Positions 352 to 49,225 of a stretch of 64,000 nt of DNA are shown here, in pieces. Under the pieces are notes generated by a model. It saw nothing but the letters and a program-made list of their open reading frames with translations. It was not told the origin of the DNA and did no database searches. The translations under genes were made by a program, and so were the position numbers. This DNA comes from Eledone cirrhosa (lineage: Eukaryota). Position 1 is the stretch's first letter. Every line of letters starts with the position of its first letter. Location: assembly GCA_964016885.1 (NCBI GenBank), contig OZ024743.1, positions 86,118,001-86,182,000 of the forward strand, written 5' to 3'.

Positions 352-797
352 CGTGTGGACTATGTATTGATGAATGAATAAATATTCTAAACAGATTACG
401 CAATAGTGATTGCCTAAACACGAGAAATTAATTCTTCACACGTTGTCCACACGTCTGGAAACACCTCTTATATAACTACAAAGCTCTTATATAACCAAAA
501 GCATCCTAATTTTCTTATCAACTAGAAACTTTTGAACTTTCGCAGTTATCTCTCTTACACCTCTCGCACGCAATTTAGTATTGCCTGTGTGAAGTGATCA
601 TTTCTGCACATGCGCGTTCGTACGGTTGTCCTTCCTGTTCCATATAACCATGTCCATTACGAGCTGAGGATCTGCTAAGGTGAAACAATTGTTCTCGGTA
701 TGGTGAACTAACTGTTGTGTAACCACTTCTACCTAACTCGTCCCATGGACTGAGTGCTCTACCACTACGGATATTACTTTCCAGTGTTCTACCACTA
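352..797 (+). mobile_element. Penelope-like terminal (pLTR) remnant between (TA)n arrays
   Basis: Contains a minimal hammerhead (660-697), upstream TGCACATGCG motif and downstream GGACTGAGT motif shared with other termini in the window. Confidence 0.55.
660..697 (+). ncRNA. Minimal type I hammerhead ribozyme (candidate)
   Basis: cgag-CTGAGGA-t-ct-gctaa-gg-t-GAAA-caattg-TT-ctcg; stem I cgag/ctcg, palindromic stem III ACAATTGT; stem II weak. Confidence 0.65.
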
Positions 798-4165: not shown

Positions 4166-4210
<45 letters not shown>

Positions 4211-4213
<3 letters not shown>

Positions 4214-4725
4214 CGTTTCTGAATTTGTTTAGCAAGATTCTTTATCTGAAATCGTGTGTTGAAACCGGTACTGTTATACTTTGGGAGGGTCATGTTGCCA
4301 ATAAGAAACACACGCACCAGTTGCTTTCACTTCAATTTATTATATATTTATAAATTTACAAATCTACAAACTTATAAATTTCTGGTTGGTTGGTTGGTTC
4401 CACAACCAGATAGTTGTTTATATATAGTCATAGTCCTTTCGTCACACACTCTGTGACCTCTTCAGTGACTGGGGATTCCTTTCTTTGTTTCTGTGCCTTT
4501 CCTTTCTTCTGTCCTACGCCATTTTGTTTCTGTGTGTGTGTTGTGTGCTCAGTTTGCGCATGCGCCACATCCGGGTGTCTGTGTGTGTGTGTTTGTGTTC
4601 ATTTATCTATTTGTTTATTTATTTATTTATTTATTGTTGGTTGGTTGTTTGTTCTATGTGTGTGTGTGTTTTCATTTTGTCCTTAATTGTAAGTTGTGAT
4701 GTTGCTGTTCCACTCATATTTTCTA
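4211..4725 (-). mobile_element. Solo Penelope-like pLTR plus ORF-start tail, related to the element at 45681-49225
   Basis: TGCGCATGCG, AAAATGGCG, hammerhead, then ATG (4293) encoding MTLPKYNSTGFNTRFQIKNLAKQ, homologous to 45682-45750. Confidence 0.7.
4426..4470 (-). ncRNA. Minimal type I hammerhead ribozyme
   Basis: agtca-CTGAAGA-g-gtcac-agagtgt-gtgac-GAAA-ggac-TA-tgact; perfect 5-bp stems I and II. Confidence 0.85.
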
Positions 4726-4726
4726 T

Positions 4727-5226
4727 TTAATTTTGGTTGTAATTCTTTTGCAATTGTCCTTTCCTCATCTTGTATGAAACATAGCGAATGTCTTCATGTA
4801 CCACCAGCCTAATGAGCTTTTCATCCACGCCTTTCTCCCTTGCAATGGCACGCATCGACTTGCTAGGTTCATTGTTGATGATATCCTGAACTTCAGCGAT
4901 GAACTCGGGTGTTCTAAAGGCGCTAGATCGTCGATCATGTGTTTTCCTCTCTGATGTTGTTTCGTAGTCGAATCCTAAATCTTCCAATTCCTTTCTGACC
5001 TTTTCCACGATTCTCCTGCTGACGCTGAGAAAGTCTGAAATTTCCTTATTTGTCCTCCCGGCGCGGATTCCAAGAAGAACTCCATGTCTCTTCCATAAAT
5101 TATTCTGAAAATAAATAATGGAAATATAGTCACTGTTTTTATGAAGACAAGAGTGACAATGGAAGTAAAAAAAATTTGCATAAAATTAGCAGTTGAAAAT
5201 TGCGAACAAATATCATCCACACCCTG
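4727..5226 (-). mobile_element. Tc1/mariner-superfamily (maT-like) 5' remnant with N-terminal HTH
   Basis: RTPEFIAEVQDII...KSMRAIAREKGVDEKLIRLVVHEDI HTH-like peptide; terminus TA|CAGGGTG on the - strand. Confidence 0.7.
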
Positions 5227-34250: not shown

Positions 34251-34951
34251 AAGTGTTATAATATAATGGCCATTAACCGGGAATGTTGACATTTGAAAAT
34301 GTTAAAGAAGTCAATAAGCTATAAAATATATTTAATCAACAGCCACGAAATTTAGTAGATAAATTATGTAATATTCATTCATTATTTATTCAAAGTAATC
34401 CAACTTATTTTACAAACGGGATTAAAAAAATATAATCTGGACGCAGTCCCGCACTCCTTTCTTTATTATAGTTTAGATATATAATATATATATATATATT
34501 CCTCTCTCTCTCTCTATATATATACAGAGGAAGGGAAGGAACTGTGTACCAGGAAGTTGCAGAGATTATGGGCACACTTAAAGGTAGTGGTGTGCCCATT
34601 CTGGTACCCATGGCTACCCTATATATACATATATATATAGGCGGTGAATTGGCAGAGTCATTAAAATGTTGGATTGAATGAGTTGTGGTATTTGTTTCAA
34701 CTCTCAGCAGACTGAGTTCAACTTTGCTTTTCATCCTCCAGTACTGGAGTCATTTCATCGTCTATATCTCTTTTTCACTTCCTCTTTATCACTTTCTCCC
34801 CTTCTCTGGAAGAAATTAGTTGTGTTCAGACCTGGAGAAGGGATCGACTCTGCCAAATTTAAAATGCCCAATAAATGTTGTTTGTCACTTGAGCACCCCT
34901 ACAACTTCACCACGAGTTATGGGTTGATACATAAATCTAATATTTATATAT

Positions 34952-35034
34952 ATGTTACTTTTACAGAAGCTACAACAGCTAATAATGCTTCAAATATCCT
35001 TTGGTTGTATCTCTTGCACAGTCCTACCAAGATG
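34952..35034 (+). CDS. Duplicate of the putative first coding exon (signal peptide) of the host gene
   Basis: Identical to 41810-41892; ends TG|gtaagt; lies in the 34522-35548 duplication. Confidence 0.55.
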
Positions 35035-35067
35035 GTAAGTAATTATTATTATTATTATTATTATTGT

Positions 35068-35258
35068 CAGTGGATTGGCAGTATCGGTAGAGAGTCGGAC
35101 GCCATGCTTTGCAGCAAAGAGTTACGGCTTTTTATGGTCTGAGTTCAAATCCCGCTGAGGTTAAGTTTGCCTTTCATTCTTACGGGGTTGATAAAATATA
35201 GTACCAGTAATACACTGGGATAATTGCTGGCCTTGTGCCAAAAGTAGAAATAATAATT
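35068..35258 (+). mobile_element. tRNA-derived Meta-domain-type SINE (family 2)
   Basis: TGGCAGTATCGG, GAGTTCAAATCC, gcctttcatt...ggggttgataaaat..agtaccag, TAA/ATT tail. Confidence 0.8.
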
Positions 35259-35548
35259 ATTATTATTGTTCTGTCAGTCTCAGTCATTGATGTTATTTAA
35301 CTGGAAACTTTGTTGAAATGAATATCAAGCTGCTACCTGCAGCCTCAGATATTCAGGACGTATCGGAGGGTTCTTGCTGTTCCCAGCAAGCAAGCCTTTT
35401 GAAGTGTTCCAAAATACGGGGCTGGACTAATCTTCTTTAACCATCCTTGGAAACTCCTTGAGATAGTACCTAGTGCTCCTATGACAATAGGGACGACCTT
35501 GATCTCATGGCAGTTCCAAATCCTTTTTAACTCCCACTTTAAATCCTG
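35259..35548 (-). mobile_element. 3' end of R4/Dong-like element (duplicate of ~42126-42416)
   Basis: Direct sequence match. Confidence 0.8.
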
Positions 35549-37340
35549 GTATGGGTGGCGTAAGCCTTCTGCTATCAGAGGGTTTTCGGCAAACGCTGCC
35601 TGTCATCCCTAAAGGGACAAGAGCTGATGAAGTGTGTGCCTGCCTTAAGTCGTCCATGTTGTGGCCCCAGGTGAAAATTTTGTACCTGAGCACAAATATG
35701 TGTGCTCATTTGCATGGGAGTGAGTTGGCGACATTTGGCTTACCATCAGAGAGGAAGCTAACACATTGGCGCCGGATTTGTTGCGGGAAACAGCATATGA
35801 CATCGAATCTCTTTTCCAATATTTAGAGGAAAATGAGCCCAAACTTCTGTCGGACCAAAGGTTGGCCTATTTAACTATCATTGACGCGGTTCAAAATCAG
35901 ACTGGGGGTATTTACTTTCTTGATGCTCCTGGGGGTACCGGAAAAGATTTTGTAACGAAATTGATTCTCGCTAAGATTCGTCAGGAGAAAAAATTGCGTT
36001 GGCCGTTGCATCATCCGGGATCGCTGCTACTTTGCTGCCAGGAGGCAGGACAACACATTCAACCTTTAAACTCCCCTTGGATTTAGTAAAAACTGAGACA
36101 CCAACATGCAATATCAGCAAGAGCTCACACGAAGCTCTGGTTCTCAAAAAATTTTGACTCATTGTTTGGGATGAGTGCACAATGGCACAGAAGGGTGCCC
36201 TTGAGGCATTGGACAGGACCCTGAAAGACATTAGGGATTCTACGGTTCCTATGGGTGGTGTAATCCTTCTGCTATCAGGGGATTTTCGGCAAACGCTGTC
36301 TGTCATCCCCAAAGAGACAAGAGCTGATGAAGTGCGTGCCTGTCTTAAGTCATCCACGTTGTGGCTCCAGGTGAAAACTTTGTACCTGAGCACAAATATG
36401 CGTGCTCATTTGCATGGTGACAACATGTCTGCAGTATTTGCTCAGAACATTTTAGCACTTGGTGAGGGCAAGGTCCTTTCGGATGACAAGGGCGGCATAG
36501 CAATCGACTTCCTGTGCAACATTGAGCAGCCCTTCTGACCTTTGGGAAGCAGTTTTTCCTAATGTCTCATCTTTAAAAACTTCGATTGGCTCAGCGAAAG
36601 AGCCATCCTTGCTCCGAAAAATGCCATAGTTAATTTTATTAATGAGCAGCTGATTGAGAAGATTGCTGGTAAAGAGCACATCTTCAAATCTATCAACCGG
36701 ACGTCAGACCCCGATGATATCGTTAATTATCCGGTTGAGTTATTAAATTCCCTTGAGCCCCCAGGGCTCCCACCTCACATTCTTAAGCTTAGGGTTAGCT
36801 GTCTCATTATGCTAATAAGGAACTTGCGCCCACCAAAGCAGTGCGACGGTACTCGCATGGTCGTCAAGTCACTGACGCCCCATTTGATTGAGGCCACCAT
36901 TGTAATGGGGTGCGGGAGAGGGGATAATGTATTCATTCCAAGGATGAACATTTTCCCCTCGGCATCAGATATTCCGTTCGATTTCCGGCGAACCCAATTT
37001 CCGGTGAGACCATGTTGTGCCATGTCCATTAACAAGTCACAAGGGCAAACATTGTCGGTGGCGAGCATCCATTTGGGGGAGCCACACTTCTCCCATGTTG
37101 CCTGTTCCCGCGTAGGGAGCAGGAATGCACTTTTTGCTTACACTCCTCAATTCGCTATTGGAAGATTATTATCCCATCATTGATTGTCCAAAATGCTAAT
37201 TGGTTCGTAACTTTTAATAACCGGTTCAACTGCTTTATGCACTTAATTGATAAGTTTATTTGCTTTCAAGCCACGTTTACCTGTATGTAACTTTTCATAG
37301 CAAATGAACAAACCCGAGCAATGTCGAGCTAAACTGCTAG
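35549..37340 (+). mobile_element. Helitron 3' part, decayed PIF1-like helicase
   Basis: DAPGGTGK, VWDECTM, GDFRQ, QFPVRPCCAMSINKSQGQT; 3' hairpin-like cccgagcaatgtcgag then CTAG|T at 37337-37340; internal duplication 35549-35717 ~ 36250-36417. Confidence 0.9.
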
Positions 37341-41386: not shown

Positions 41387-41809
41387 GGAAGGGAAGGAAC
41401 TGTGTACCAGGAAGTTGCAGAGATTATGGGCACACTTAAAGGTAGTGGTGTGCCCATTCTGGTACCCATGGCTACCCTATATATACATATATATATAGGC
41501 GGTGAATTGGCAGAGTCATTAAAATGTTGGATTGAATGAGTTGTGGTATTTGTTTCAACTCTCAGCAGACTGAGTTCAACTTTGCTTTTCATCCTCCAGT
41601 ACTGGAGTCATTTCATCGTCTATATCTCTTTTTCACTTCCTCTTTATCACTTTCTCCCCTTCTCTGGAAGAAATTAGTTGTGTTCAGACCTGGAGAAGGG
41701 ATCGACTCTGCCAAATTTAAAATGCCCAATAAATGTTGTTTGTCACTTGAGCACCCCTACAACTTCACCACGAGTTATGGGTTGATACATAAATCTAATA
41801 TTTATATAT

Positions 41810-41892
41810 ATGTTACTTTTACAGAAGCTACAACAGCTAATAATGCTTCAAATATCCTTTGGTTGTATCTCTTGCACAGTCCTACCAAGATG
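41810..41892 (+). CDS. Host gene exon 1: signal peptide MLLLQKLQQLIMLQISFGCISCTVLPR(W)
   Basis: ATG, open frame, donor TG|gtaagt (phase 2) that matches the next exon. Confidence 0.65.
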
Positions 41893-41899
41893 GTAAGTA

Positions 41900-41932
<33 letters not shown>

Positions 41933-41935
41933 GTC

Positions 41936-42125
41936 AGTGGATTGGCAGTATCGGTAGAGAGTCGGACGCCATGCTTTGCAGCATAGAGTTACGGCCCTTT
42001 ATGGTCTGAGTTCAAATCCCGCCGAGGTTAAGTTTGCCTTTCATTCCTACGGGGTTGATAAAATATAGTACCAGTAATACACTGGGATAATTGCTGGCCT
42101 TGTGCCAAAAGTAGAAATAATAATT
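41936..42125 (+). mobile_element. SINE family 2
   Basis: Duplicate of 35068 copy. Confidence 0.8.
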
Positions 42126-44290
42126 ATTATTATTGTTCTGTCAGTCTCAGTCATTGATGTTATTTAACTGGAAACTTTGTTGAAATGAATATCAAGCTGC
42201 TACCTGCAGCCTCATATTCAGGACGTATCGGAGGGTTCTTGCTGTTCCCAGCAAGCATGCCTTTTGAAGTGTTCCAAAACACGGGCCTGACTAATCTTCT
42301 TTAACCATCCTTGGAAACTCCTTGAGATAGTACCTAGTGCTCCTATGACAATCGGGACGACCTTGATCTCATGGCAGTTCCAAATCCTTTTTAACTCCCA
42401 CTTTAAATCCTGGTATCGGTTAATTTTCTCCCTCTCCTTTTCTTGCACTCTCATGTCAAATGGGCAGGCTACATTTACAATCAGGCACAATCTCTTTTCC
42501 TTGTCAAAAACCGCCAGGTCAGGTCTGTTGTGTTCTAATTTCTTGTCCGTCTGTATCCTAAAATCCCATAGCACCTTCACCTGATCATTTTCTATCACCG
42601 ACTCTGGCTTAAGCTCATACCACTTCTCAGAATGTGGTAAATTGTTTACTTTGCATCGGTGCCAGTGAATCACCCTGCCTATCACATCATGTCTCCAGCC
42701 TTTATAGTGAGTCTGGGCTAGCTGTTTACACTCAGATACAATGTGAGCCACAGTCTCCTCTCTCTCTCCACAGCTCCTACACAGTGAGCTAGCCTCCTGC
42801 TTGTCAATATGGTGTTTCACTCACTTTGTTCTGAGGGCTTGCTCTTGCACAGCCATTAGCATTCCTTCTGTAGCTTTTTTAAGGTCTCCTCTTTTTAACC
42901 AGTTCCATGTCTGTAGATCTCTGAATTCCGTTTTCTTAAAGAAGGTGTTATGAAGGGATTTTTCATTAAGGTTGCTCTTCCTCTTTGTTATTCCTTCCTT
43001 GGACGATAAGATCTCTTCTACCTTCAGATCTCTTTAAGTAGAATCTATCAACATCACTCCTTGTGGAACATGTTGTAGATAGTCATTAGCTTCCTAATCT
43101 TTCTATCCATTTCTTTTTGATCAGTAACATTCCATTTCAGAATTACCGCACTGTACCCAATAATAGACACAACTCGGGAATTTACTGCACTTATGACATT
43201 CCTACTATTTAGATGTGATTTTAGAATGTTTCTTATACTCCTTGTGTATTCAGATCTTATCAATTCCTTCATTTTTTTGTTCTTGATGTCATCTGCCTCC
43301 AGAACACCTAAATATTTGTATCCCTCTTCAGTGTCAATTTCCTTTTTTATCTCACCTATTGGTACCTGGATTCCATTGCTTCTACTCAATTTACCCTTCT
43401 TCATCACTAGGACTCCATTAACACCAAATTCCATACATATCATTGCTGAAAATACATCCAACTCCTTCTCACTCTTCCTAAAGAGTTTAAGATCGTCCAT
43501 GAAGAGAAGGTGGTTGATGGTAAGCTCTCCTCTTCCCAGCTTGTATCCTGCTCTCACGTTTCGCAATATGTGGGACAGGGGTATGAGGGTAAGGACAAAC
43601 AGCAAAGGGGACAAACTAACTCCCTGGAAGTACCTTTCTTGATCTTCACGCCTCCCAAGGATTCTCCACCTGATGTTAGCTCTGTTTCCCAGGACTTCAT
43701 ACTTTTACTTAATAGCTGTCTGATGTTGTCTGCCACCTTGAAGATCTCTAGGCTTTTGGTTATTCAAGAATGAGGTACCATGTTGAATGGCTTCTTGTAA
43801 TCTATCCATTCCATGGCAAGACCAGTATGCCTCCTCTTGCAATTCCTTATTACCATCTTATCAATAAGTAACTGGTCTTTTGTACCACGGGACTTTTTTC
43901 GGTATCCTTTCTGTTCATCCAGTAACAAGTTGTTTATGTGGAGGTGATAGTAAATTTCCTCAGACACAATGCTTGTTAACAGTTTCCACATTACGGACAG
44001 ACATGTGATCGGCCTATAGTTGGTAACCTCATTACCCTTGATTCAGTCTTTCATTACCAGAACTGTGGCACCTTTTGTCAACCGCTTTGGTACTTCACCC
44101 GACATCAAGTAGTCATTGAACATGGCTGTCAGTTTTAGGTGGAGGGATGTTATATTTTTTTATCCAATATTCTTGCAAACCATCTGGGTCTGGTGATTTC
44201 CAGTTGGTTAGTTTTTTGGCCTGCCCTTTAAGAGTTTCAGCTGTGATACTCAAATCAGGTTGTTGGTGTGCTTGTTCACTAATCTTGTGC
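42126..44290 (-). pseudogene. R4/Dong-clade non-LTR retrotransposon (RT + CCHC + restriction-like endonuclease), decayed and 5'-truncated
   Basis: EQKG...[35 protein letters not shown]...H...C, RHD, PDL, VPIVIGALG; (TAA)n 3' tail. Confidence 0.9.
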
Positions 44291-45370: not shown

Positions 45371-45896
45371 ACTGCCTATTTTTTCAGCATTTTATTAAGA
45401 TAATTATTATGATAACAGCTGTTCCAACACTTCTACCAAAAGACAAATAAAGCAGTTTAATATTGATCCATTTTAATGTGGTGGAATGGCAGAGTTGGTA
45501 GAGCGTCAGATAAAATCTCATTGTAAAATTTGTTCTGGCTCTTTACATTCTGGGTCCTCTATACTGTCTCTGTTATTGAAAAAATGTAGTCTTGTCTGAT
45601 TATCCTGTGAGTATGCAGGTGAAACTCCAAAGTAATAAGGTTCACTGCTTAGCCATAATAAATGAATATATATATATATATTTGTTTTGCAAGGTTTTTG
45701 ATATGAAATCGTGTGTTGAAACAAATATTGTTATACTTGGGGAGGGTCATATTGTTGTAATAATATTGCCAGAAATAATAACAGAACAGACTCACTGTTT
45801 GGTTGGTTTTCGCTTCTGTATCTTTTATATCTCCATAGTTAATTTATTTGGCAATGAATGTTTATCATTGATTGAGCAACGGTTAAAAATACAGAT

Positions 45897-46476
45897 CATC
45901 ATCATCATCATCATCATCATCATTTTACGTCCACTTTTCCCTGCTTGCAAGGGTGGGACGGGTCCTATTCAGCACAGCATCTCTCCACTTGTCACGGTCC
46001 TTCGTCATCTCCACTGTGAGCTTCAGCGATCTGAGGTCTGCTCTCACCACCTCCGCCCATGTTTTTCGTGGTCTTTCTCTACTACATCTTCCTTCAACTG
46101 GCATTTCTTGGCACTTCACCCATCGGTCATCCTCCATGCGCATCACATGTCCATACCATCGCAGTCTCCTCTCCCGCACACTACAATTTATTCCTCTCAG
46201 ACACAGTTTCTCTCTCAACACATCCATGCTCAGTCATTCACGCACATTGACATTGCTCATCCAACGGAGCATGCTTGCCTCATTTCTCTCCAGCCATCGC
46301 ATATCCTCTGCAGTTGCTGCCCGTGTCTCACTACCATGCAGCATCGCGTACCTCACACAGGCATCATACAACCGTCCTTTCGTACACAGGGAGAAACCCT
46401 TCTTCGTCAACAGAGGAAGCAGCTCCCTAAACTTCCTCCAACCCATCCTTATTCTAGATACTATAGCCTCGGAACA
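45897..46476 (-). mobile_element. RTE family C 3' fragment nested in the Penelope pLTR
   Basis: CSEAIVSRIR...TRPTLASREK and (GAT)n. Confidence 0.93.
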
Positions 46477-46499
46477 TATATAAATATATATATATAGTC

Positions 46500-46543
46500 T
46501 ATCAAAGTTCTTTCGTTGCACATCTGCAACATCATCAGTGGTA
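46500..46543 (-). ncRNA. Minimal type I hammerhead ribozyme in the Penelope pLTR
   Basis: tacca-CTGATGA-t-gttgca-gatg-tgcaac-GAAA-gaac-TT-tgata. Confidence 0.85.
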
Positions 46544-48247
46544 CTATTATGTTTCCTCCAATTTATTGTATTGTATTGTAATGTCTACGCCATTTTTATT
46601 TTATTCATTTATTTATTTCTTCTTGTCGCCGTCTCTGCGCATGCGTTTGCATGTGTGTATAATGTTTGGTGTATGTGTTCGCATTTGAGTGTATGTGTTT
46701 TGGTTTTTGTATTCTATCTTTGTTTACTAGTGTGTGTTTATATGTGTTTGTTGTTATTGTACTTGTGTATATATTTATTTATTTATTTATATTTTCCTTA
46801 AGTCAGTATTGTTTGTTTGGGTATGGTTGTTGCTATTCCATTCGTTTTTTCTGTTTAACTTTGGTTTTCTAAGCTCTATTTCACTTGCTTCTCTGATTTG
46901 CCTACATATTGAGTCATTTCTATGTTTAGATATTATTTTAATTTCTATGTTGTCTATATTACCATCATGTCTTTCTCTGTCATGTTCGTATAGTACTGAA
47001 CCGTTTTTTGTCCTTTTAATTCCTCCCTGTGCTGGTCTATTCTTTCTCCTATGCTTCGAGCTGTCTCACCTATGTATGTTGTTGTCATGTTTCTGCAAGT
47101 ACCCTCTGTACATCTTATGCTATAGACTACATTTCTAGTATCACAGTTTATCTAGGGGTTCATTTTACACATAACACATTTCTTATTAGTACAGTGGGTT
47201 TTCTGAAAGGGGTATGTTTTGCTGATCAGGGATTTTATGGTAGTTCCTGGCTTTTCTACCACTTTAATCTTTAAGTGGGTCTTTCTTAGGGCCTTTCTAC
47301 ATTGGTTAGCTAACCCCCCCCCCCCCCGGGGTAGCATCCACGAACATGACACTCTGGTATCTCTGGTTGTTGTACCATGAAGTGGTTTTCCCTATCTTAT
47401 GTTTAGTCCTATCTAAGCTATTCCATGATTTGCTCCTGTATAATAGGCAAATTCCTTTTGTGTCCATTTCTATGAGGGTCTTATACTTCTCCATGGCTTC
47501 TTTGTATACTCTGATTCTGTCTCTTTGGTTGTAGCCAGAGAACTGCATGCGGTTGATGAAATGTTGGATGTGTCTTTCCATTTCTGTTGGGTCGCACATG
47601 CGGGACACGTTCTTCATCACTCGTACCAAGTCTGCAATCAGAATATTAAACTTAGCATTACTGGACATTGCTGAGTTTTTGAGTATTAGATATTTGGAGG
47701 CCATGGGTTTAGCGTAGTGTGAGTGGAGAATTTGGGCTCTCTCGTCTATAGTGTTAATCCAGAGTTCCGTGTCTAATACAGGTAGTCTATTGTTAGAGTG
47801 TTTGGAAGGGTAGTCGATAGTTACAGTTATACTCTGGTGTATGGAATTAGCTGGATGCTTTCCATTGTGCTACGTTCTAAATCAAACTTGTTAGTGCTCT
47901 CTTGTGGGGATGTCCTTATTACTATATTGATGTCGTCTACGTAACGAGAGTACATGACAAGGTCTATGGAGCTGTCTTCAAGGAGTTATTTGAGTCTCCT
48001 TTCCCACCATACCATAAATAGATTGGCAACATCACCAGCTATGCTGATGCCAATGGCTGCTCCCTCATTCTGGGTGTAGATCTTTTCGTTAAATTTAAAC
48101 ATATGGCCCTTTAGGGTATTTTTAACACTAGCTCCTATTGCATGTGTGACCATTTTTCTCACCTGATCATTGTTTTTGGGTGTCCGCATAGCTTTGGTCC
48201 ATCCATTCCATCTTCCCATGGGAGTCTTTTTAGCTATTGAGGTTATG

Positions 48248-48278
<31 letters not shown>

Positions 48279-49225
48279 GGGGGGGGCTACCCCTTATGTC
48301 TCTACTGGGGAAGAAACAGCTAGGTACTCGGTGTCATAAGTAAGTCTAAGTAGAAGGCCCAGTTCATCTGTGTCGATGTCGCAGAACTCCACTTCGCTCT
48401 CACTGATTATTTCCACACATTTTTCCACAGCAAAATCAATGTTAATGGATGGGTACAGTGAAACCACATCCATACTGCCTATTATGCAGTTGGATAGGTT
48501 TTTGTTTTTGTTTCACTCATTGATTCTGCTGAGGAGGTCCTCTGTACTGTCACATATATCTGGGGACATCTTAATTATGTGGCGTATAACCATCGAGAGA
48601 AAGTAGGAGATCCTGTAGTTGCTAGCAATATTGACTACGCATACAGGTCTTGTTGGTGGTCCTGTCATTGGGTCGTCAGTTGTCTTATGGTCTTTGCGGA
48701 GCCCATACACGGGTGGTATGTCACCATCCCTTGTGCGCTGCTTGAGCCTAATTAGGCCTTCTACAGGTTTCCTTCCAAGTTGGATTTCTGGTCTGCTTTG
48801 TCTCTTAGTATATTGGTCTACTACCTGTCTAAGTTTATTTCTAGCTATGGTAAACTGTTCCTCTGCTTCGTCATCTATTTGTTGTGGTATACAAACTCTT
48901 TTATTAAAAGGTAATTTAGTGGGATAAATTTTGTTCATTTTGTATGTTTTGTCAGCTGGGTTGAAGAATAGATTCTCTGAGGGGTTGTCATTAAATCTAT
49001 CGTTATAGTTATGTGTGCTACTATTATTGTTATTATGGTTGTTGTTGTTCCTACCGTTGACATTATTATTATTGTTATGATTGTTAAATGTATTGTTGTT
49101 GTTTTCTCTATTGTTATTGTTGTTGTTACTGTTATTTGTACCATTGTGGTTGTTACCTGTATTATGTTTGTTGTTGTTGTTGTTGTTGTTGTGTCTATCG
49201 TTAACGTTGCTACTCCTATTATTTC

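What the first reader, a model, noticed from the sequence alone, without database searches (positions are those of the whole stretch)
4211..4725. Readable Penelope pLTR architecture: NRF1-like site, YY1-like site, hammerhead, then conserved ORF start
Seen: this solo unit and the 3' end of the Penelope element (45681-46650, once the nested RTE is removed) have the same order on the - strand. That order is TGCGCATGCG (4555; 46636), AAAATGGCGTAG (4514; 46585), a hammerhead with one extra nt after A9, then an ATG peptide MTLPKYN(STG/NIC)FNTRF(Q/H)IKNLAKQ. The peptide has five synonymous differences between copies (cca/ccc, ata/atc, aag/aaa, aat/aac, gct/gca) while the spacers are unalignable. Stems I and II differ in sequence yet keep pairing. 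Known: Penelope 3' tails repeat the ORF N-terminus. Inference: promoter, ribozyme and start region are under selection across subfamilies.
Basis: partly seen in the sequence, partly recalled or inferred. Interest (0 to 1): 0.72.

Follow-up and report, generated by a model that had tools for sequence, protein, structure and literature searches.

The report
Penelope retroelement end with promoter footprint
This is the tail end of a very abundant Penelope-like jumping gene; short copies across the genome stop just ahead of a conserved YY1-type DNA word, which likely marks where the element's RNA starts, while long copies run past that point and so keep the upstream, NRF1-type word that likely belongs to the promoter.

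Summary
Observation confirmed. Window 4208-4749 (- strand) is a 5'-truncated copy of an abundant Penelope-like element (family A); 45667-49203 is a sister family (B, 66% amino-acid identity in RT/endonuclease). The 23-residue peptide starts intact 1210-1291-aa ORFs in both families. The hammerhead with an extra base after A9, the repeated ORF start and the 'tail' are published PLE features. What goes beyond the papers I searched: 5' ends of short copies pile up 0-19 nt before the YY1-like word (14 of 59 at risk; genome-wide TA-junction counts 459 versus 26 and 51 in control windows). ORF-bearing copies seldom stop there (1 of 39), and none of 78 ends at the hammerhead cut site. This likely marks a TATA-less start site, as in L1, and implies circular or multimeric templates for long copies. 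The NRF1-like word is half-lost in one active subfamily but recurs in a distant Hydra-like family. Factor binding, the start site and cleavage are untested; no RNA reads were laid. The scan noted the same pile-up earlier on other DNA (e1-9926904).

The parts
4208..4749 (-). Whole 5'-truncated family-A Penelope-like copy, inserted at a (TA)n run
   Evidence: blastn to intact copy L229, 95-99% identity; 5' junction at 4749 (L001)
4683..4748 (-). Last 21 codons and stop of the GIY-YIG endonuclease domain
   Evidence: translation equals the C-terminus of intact ORFs
4567..4574 (-). ETS-like word, family A only (motif name recalled)
   Evidence: intact in 84 of 92 spanning A copies; not seen in B
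4555..4565 (-). NRF1-like palindrome, upstream of the inferred start site (motif name recalled)
   Evidence: intact in 60 of 92 spanning A copies, right half only in a subfamily (12 of 92); B variant in 19 of 27
4522..4541 (-). Inferred dispersed transcription start zone (mode near 4529-4531)
   Evidence: pile-up of 5' ends of sister copies; inferred, no RNA data
4514..4525 (-). YY1-like word; also encodes a Met-Ala-stop upstream ORF
   Evidence: 84 of 92 spanning A and 21 of 27 spanning B copies carry one of two exact variants; uORF
4426..4470 (-). Minimal type I hammerhead: extra G at 4458, 6-bp stem II, predicted cut between 4431 and 4430
   Evidence: cleavage not tested; Rfam gives no hammerhead hit
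4312..4317 (-). 5' splice-site-like word before the ATG (counterpart at 45790-45795 in B); function unknown
   Evidence: sequence; not tested
4270..4293 (-). ORF codons 1-8, ending at the short 3' end used by tail-less and inverted copies
   Evidence: about 50 of 160 A ends fall at +20 to +26
4208..4269 (-). About 60-nt 'tail' (ORF codons 9-28), ending at the long 3' end
   Evidence: about 100 of 160 A ends fall at +81 to +90
45667..49203 (-). Decayed family-B element lacking its 5' part (RT, CX4CXXC linker, GIY-YIG, 3' pLTR)
   Evidence: blastn to intact L275, 83-89%; ORFs
46635..46646 (-). Family-B NRF1-like word
46585..46596 (-). Family-B YY1-like word
46495..46546 (-). Family-B hammerhead, extra T after A9
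45896..46479 (-). RTE-type LINE fragment nested in the TA run behind the hammerhead (ends approximate)
45682..45750 (-). Family-B ORF start repeat
   Evidence: same N-terminus as the intact 1210-aa ORF

Best explanation
The stretch is the 3' pseudo-LTR of an abundant Penelope-like retrotransposon: the end of the endonuclease gene, then a likely promoter (NRF1-like word, inferred start zone, YY1-like word), a predicted self-cleaving hammerhead, and a repeat of the first 28 codons of the ORF. Shown: element identity, ORF start, two fixed 3' ends (+24 and +84), (TA)n targeting, stem II covariation, and the pile-up of 5' ends before the YY1-like word. Inferred mechanism: host RNA polymerase II starts about 10 nt before the YY1-like word, which positions the start as in L1, helped by the upstream NRF1-like word. 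The element's RT starts internally at +24 or +84, as shown for the anole element. On linear RNA, RT runs off at the cap and leaves short copies that begin at the start zone. ORF-bearing copies are made from a template with no end at this point, most likely a unit-length circle cut and rejoined at the two hammerheads. RT therefore passes the start zone and re-copies the 3' UTR, which rebuilds the upstream promoter words ahead of the next ORF.
For: Intact ORFs begin with the peptide: 14 of 20 fetched A copies have 1227-1291 aa, and a B copy has 1210 aa. 5' ends of tail-bearing A copies: 14 of 59 at risk end in -242..-221, against 1 in the next 66 nt upstream and 8 in the 66 nt downstream; scan test p=5e-4, 0 of 2000 simulations. 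Family B, with unrelated spacers: 6 of 16 at risk (5 loci) end in the same window relative to the word. Genome-order sample: 6 of 30, vs 1, 0 and 1 in the next three windows (at least three loci overlap earlier sets). Genome-wide (TA)4 junctions, reverse-strand counts: 459 at the YY1-like word, 26 at the NRF1-like word, 51 at the hammerhead, 10-13-fold after scaling by copies at risk. ORF-bearing A copies cross the same sequence and stop there 1 of 39 times (Fisher p=0.004). No end at the predicted cut site, 0 of 78. Equally spaced B hits about 4.1 kb apart indicate full-length tandem arrays. The genome encodes an NRF1 DNA-binding domain (PF10491). A distant Hydra-like family carries a perfect NRF1-type palindrome about 50 nt before its own hammerhead in 11 of 20 copies. 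In human promoters YY1 drives initiation immediately upstream and on one strand (10.1101/2023.06.27.546584, passages), and it sets the L1 start (PMC11602158, passages).
Against: No RNA evidence was obtained: the runs offered were contigs with small shares, and no reads were laid. An untemplated cap-derived G is not evident: 3 of about 34 junctions by eye, vs about 2 of 49. The NRF1-like word is half-lost in an active subfamily and absent from some B copies. ORF-bearing B copies stop at the zone 2 of 12 times, so the short/long contrast is weaker in B (pooled 3 of 51, p=0.016). The Hydra-like family has no YY1 word. A YY1 orthologue was not searched. The anole study found no reads ending at the hammerhead cut and no need for cleavage in vitro (PMC11167929). 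Control anchors differ in subfamily coverage, so the fold change is approximate. Circle, multimer and strand transfer cannot be told apart here.
Confidence: 0.68

Rival explanations
1. The pile-up marks a local RT stall or a preferred joining site (A/C-rich tract, nearby palindrome), and the conserved words are RNA-level or incidental, not promoter elements.
For: The zone is A/C-rich and many 5' ends abut inverted partners. Smaller clusters lie at -127, -83 and -23, where TA microhomology or palindromes exist. No cap-G signal.
Against: ORF-bearing copies pass the same sequence and stop there 1 of 39 times. The peak tracks the word in family B with different spacers. It also appears at plain (TA)n junctions without inversion.
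Confidence: 0.14
2. The start zone is real, but the conserved word is kept as a translational control element (a Met-Ala-stop upstream ORF near the cap) rather than as a YY1 site.
For: The stop codon right after Met-Ala is conserved in both families, beyond the YY1 core.
Against: The A/G variation at the third base (both variants common) fits the YY1 motif as well as a Kozak purine. The position just after the start matches YY1 in human promoters. The two roles can coexist.
Confidence: 0.12
3. The shared words survive by descent only, and the short copies descend from one or a few truncated masters.
For: A and B are related (44% of same-residue codons differ). One shared 11-mer arises in 9% of shuffles.
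Against: Two collinear words occur in 5 of 3000 shuffles. The peak holds several A subfamilies and family B, with different flanks and ends spread over 20 nt. The NRF1-type word recurs in a distant clade.
Confidence: 0.06

Closest known systems
Canonical C-terminal EN+ PLEs of the Neptune/Nematis type (Craig et al. 2021, PMC8557442; passages, section 11 and a supplement search read)
   Same: Single ORF with RT and C-terminal GIY-YIG, CX2-5CxxC linker, CCHH motif, (TA)n targeting, partial tandems, inverted 5'-truncated partners, tail.
   Different: The tail is about 60 nt rather than 30-40; the ORF is 1210-1290 aa with an Asn-rich insert; Neptune vs Nematis is not resolved.
[quoted passage not shown]
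   Same: Type I, extra base between A9 and G10.1, long stem II, short stem I, near-palindromic stem III implying dimer action; a circular template is proposed there.
   Different: No promoter words or start-site mapping in the parts read.
Drosophila virilis Penelope promoter (Schostak et al. 2008, PMC2377424; passages)
   Same: TATA-less promoter and start site inside the pLTR, upstream of the hammerhead and ORF.
   Different: There it is an internal Inr/DPE promoter with a 75-bp intron; here NRF1-like upstream and YY1-like downstream words, and no intron shown.
Anolis Poseidon element PAc (Frangieh et al. 2024, PMC11167929; parts 1-2 of 4 read)
   Same: Two internal RT start sites within the ORF 5' end define the tail; AT-rich targets.
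   Different: There the hammerhead overlaps the start codon; here it lies 130-230 nt upstream of it.
YY1 site of mammalian L1 promoters (PMC11602158; passages)
   Same: YY1-type word a few bases after the RNA start.
   Different: Unrelated retrotransposon class; binding is shown for L1 and only inferred here.

Membership tests
EN+ Penelope-like element | Single ORF with RT and C-terminal GIY-YIG endonuclease | tested here: met
   Intact ORFs. They get no Pfam hit themselves, but homologues P0045 and P0046 hit GIY-YIG and RVT_1; YVDD/YIDD and a YIGET core are visible; weak match to the I-TevI catalytic domain, E=0.34.
EN+ Penelope-like element | pLTR from partial tandem, inverted 5'-truncated partner, optional tail | tested here: met
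EN+ Penelope-like element | Hammerhead in the pLTR | tested here: met
   Core, stems and covariation in 221 copies; Rfam scan negative.
Neptune/Nematis clades | CX2-5CxxC linker and CCHH in the endonuclease | tested here: met
   CX4CXXC and two Cys plus two His seen in both proteins; definitions.
Neptune vs Nematis | RT phylogeny with named reference elements | not tested
   No named reference sequences were in hand; the supplement search did not settle it.
Hydra or Naiad clade | Loss of CCHH with CxCX5C linker (Hydra); N-terminal endonuclease (Naiad) | tested here: not met
Active minimal hammerhead | Self-cleavage as a dimer | not testable with these tools
   Only structure was examined; no copy ends at the cut site (0 of 78).
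YY1-positioned promoter | Motif just downstream of the RNA start, on the sense strand | tested here: inconclusive
   The genomic 5'-end pile-up fits; no RNA 5' ends; cap-G not evident.
YY1-positioned promoter | YY1 binds the word | not testable with these tools
   Orthologue not searched; binding needs an assay.
NRF1 site | Full palindrome conserved and factor present | tested here: inconclusive
   Factor domain present; palindrome intact in 60 of 92 A and, as a one-base variant, in 19 of 27 B copies; half-lost in one subfamily.

The most novel reading that the evidence does not exclude
Penelope-like elements of different clades in this genome use a housekeeping-type host promoter (NRF1 upstream; YY1 downstream in families A and B). 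They avoid losing upstream promoter DNA by copying hammerhead-cut, rejoined RNA circles. The genome then records two template pools: capped linear RNA, giving short copies that end at the start site, and circles, giving ORF-bearing tandems that rebuild the promoter.
Probability: 0.3. Interest if true: 0.72.

Novelty: new variant of a known kind. Interest (0 to 1): 0.5.

Why it matters
The PLE replication cycle, the role of the hammerhead and the origin of the partial tandems are open questions (PMC8557442, PMC11167929), and a PLE promoter has been dissected only in D. virilis among the papers found. These families are very abundant (27,061 exact word-plus-hammerhead matches) and include intact young copies. 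Copy ends therefore act as a fossil 5'-end map and give base-level predictions for the start site, two factor sites and a circle junction. Thousands of scattered NRF1/YY1-type units (8,488 exact pairs) could also act as dispersed promoters in the host. The element class, hammerhead, tail and ORF-start repeat are already known.

Tried and rejected
Rfam scan: no hammerhead hit, only microsatellite-driven miRNA matches and two weak tRNA matches. Pfam: no hit for either intact ORF. PDB: one weak match. RNA runs: 24 listed, all contigs, RNA ones with shares of 0.10 or less; nothing was laid, so start site and splicing stay open. Long open frames in the first peptide search were mostly (TA)n read-through; only 3 of 14 fetched loci were true ORF starts. 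Cap-derived G: not distinguishable from control by eye. Extra nucleotide constraint in the peptide: not seen. Pile-up at the hammerhead cut: none; a small cluster 5 nt downstream (5 of 78) is explained by TA microhomology. 5'-UTR intron like that of D. virilis: donor-like words exist, but I saw no shared acceptor before the ATG; untested. End pile-up in the Hydra-like family: ends look concentrated within about 20 nt of the hammerhead, but there was no control and microhomology confounds it; inconclusive. Rows dropped before the 14-of-59 count: copies whose alignment did not reach the ATG, tail-less or inverted partners, 5 ORF-start sites and 1 duplicate locus (103 to 98). Forward-strand counts were set aside because overlapping TA shifts inflate them. 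Literature searches for a PLE promoter with YY1/NRF1 or a start-site footprint listed none; subscription journals are not covered, and only one paper's supplement was searched.

Full report
Observation. The two words, the hammerhead and the peptide are present in both units in the stated order, with five synonymous and four non-synonymous codon differences. Each word occurs at only these two places in the window. Two collinear shared GC-containing 11-mers arise in 5 of 3000 shuffled UTR pairs, and one alone in 258 of 3000. The unit at 4211-4725 actually runs 4208-4749 and includes the last 21 codons of the endonuclease, so it is a 5'-truncated copy.

Identity. Peptide searches of the own genome gave about 35,000 and 39,000 first-look candidates, and an exact word-plus-hammerhead pattern matches 27,061 times against 6 for the reversed control. 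The peptide starts intact ORFs: 14 of 20 fetched family-A copies have 1227-1291 aa, and a family-B copy has 1210 aa. [quoted passage not shown] A and B are 66% identical over RT/endonuclease, and 44% of same-residue codons differ. The best named homologue is an Octopus vulgaris protein at 68%. Copies end in (TA)n at about +24 or +84 of the ORF, often with an inverted partner, which matches the tail and internal RT start shown for the anole element and the rotifer pLTR layout (PMC3846280, passages). The first 28 residues are more conserved than residues 29-170 (p=0.002) and align with N-termini of distant homologues. Synonymous divergence there is ordinary (7 of 20 vs 212 of 487).

Hammerhead. 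In 221 non-redundant copies the core carries one extra base (G in 150 of 153 A, T in 68 of 68 B), and stem II has two compensatory pairs between the families. Stem I is 4-5 bp in A but 2 bp before a mismatch in B, and stem III is a near-palindromic stub. This is the published minimal, dimer-dependent PLE hammerhead. Cleavage was not tested.

Promoter words. Among copies spanning the 3' UTR, the YY1-like word is exact in 84 of 92 A and 21 of 27 B copies. The NRF1-like palindrome is intact in 60 of 92 A and, as a one-base variant, in 19 of 27 B; a subfamily that includes ORF-bearing copies keeps only its right half. An ETS-like word precedes it in A only. The genome encodes an NRF1 DNA-binding domain. 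A third, distant family with a Hydra-like endonuclease tail, one copy of which lies at window 520-795, has a perfect NRF1-type palindrome about 50 nt before its own hammerhead in 11 of 20 copies, but no YY1 word. The motif names are recalled, and binding is untested.

Start-site footprint. I mapped how far each copy extends 5'. Of 98 tail-bearing A copies, 59 reach position -221 and 14 end in -242..-221, directly before and at the YY1-like word; 1 ends in the next 66 nt (scan p=5e-4 on the 103-row set). Family B shows 6 of 16 (5 loci) in the same window relative to the word, and a genome-order sample 6 of 30 (partly overlapping). Genome-wide, (TA)4 lies within 22 nt before the YY1-like anchor at 459 reverse-strand sites, against 26 and 51 for anchors upstream and downstream. 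In human promoters YY1 drives initiation immediately upstream and sets the L1 start, so the peak most likely is the RNA 5' end. Against this: no clear cap-derived G, and no RNA reads.

Short versus long copies. ORF-bearing A copies stop in this window 1 of 39 times (p=0.004) and B copies 2 of 12 times (pooled p=0.016). These sets were chosen for N-terminal identity or long open frames. A sequence-intrinsic stall should act on both classes, so it is disfavoured. Long copies continue seamlessly into the 3' UTR and the previous ORF, equally spaced hits indicate 4.1-kb tandem arrays, and none of 78 copies ends at the predicted cut. A linear unit transcript cannot template such copies. A hammerhead-derived circle, as proposed in PMC4209133, is the simplest source, but multimeric transcripts or strand transfer fit too. 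Any of these re-copies the upstream word in front of the next ORF.

Novelty and verdict. The element class, hammerhead, tail and ORF-start repeat are known. The D. virilis promoter is Inr/DPE-type; searches listed no paper with NRF1/YY1 words or a genomic start footprint for a PLE. Also read without bearing on the verdict: 10.64898/2026.07.22.740005 (part 1 of 5) and PMC13282606 (passages). Verdict: real, a new variant of a known kind; identity about 0.98, start zone about 0.75, YY1 and NRF1 as the actual factors about 0.5 each, circular template about 0.45; interest 0.5.

Noticed in passing
window 520-795 (+); L327-L346: 3' end of a distant, Hydra-like PLE family (2,422 first-look candidates) with its own hammerhead at 664 and an NRF1-type palindrome about 50 nt upstream, perfect in 11 of 20 copies.
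   Followed up: partly
window 5527, 18586, 21823 (-): Three copies of another hammerhead-like motif with a long stem II beside (TA)n, probably a further PLE family.
   Followed up: no
L031 1155-2030; L038 4664-6100 and opposite strand: Tandem arrays of a 422- or 466-nt unit, each with a hammerhead-like core, retrozyme-like.
   Followed up: no
L055, L084, L129, L193; L068, L161, L166, L169: Two more hammerhead families with 4-bp stem II and pyrimidine-rich upstream sequence, next to (TA)n.
   Followed up: no
window 4312-4317 and 45790-45795 (-): Splice-donor-like words shortly before the ATG in both families, with no shared acceptor seen before the ATG.
   Followed up: no
window 4514-4522 and 46585-46593 (-): The YY1-like word encodes a conserved Met-Ala-stop uORF; further uATGs lie before the main ATG (1 in A, 6 in B).
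   Followed up: partly
L231 and L275 ORFs, residues about 240-440: Asn/His/Thr-rich low-complexity insert, recalling the Asn-rich inserts of rotifer Penelope ORFs.
   Followed up: no
G000:C1:14384386-14392859; C3:90463886-90472313; C2:348856605-348865039: Three equally spaced family-B hits each, about 4.1 kb apart, indicating young head-to-tail arrays.
   Followed up: partly
window 4727-5185 (-): HTH-bearing fragment, probably a Tc1/mariner-type transposase (label recalled; weak HTH hits), abutting the 5' end of the unit.
   Followed up: no
window 35503-37183 (+); 42218-44200 (-); 34678-35142 vs 41536-42009: PIF1-like helicase fragments, a restriction-like-endonuclease LINE remnant, and a duplicated ~470-nt segment (labels by eye); the window is otherwise dominated by RTE-type LINEs.
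   Followed up: no
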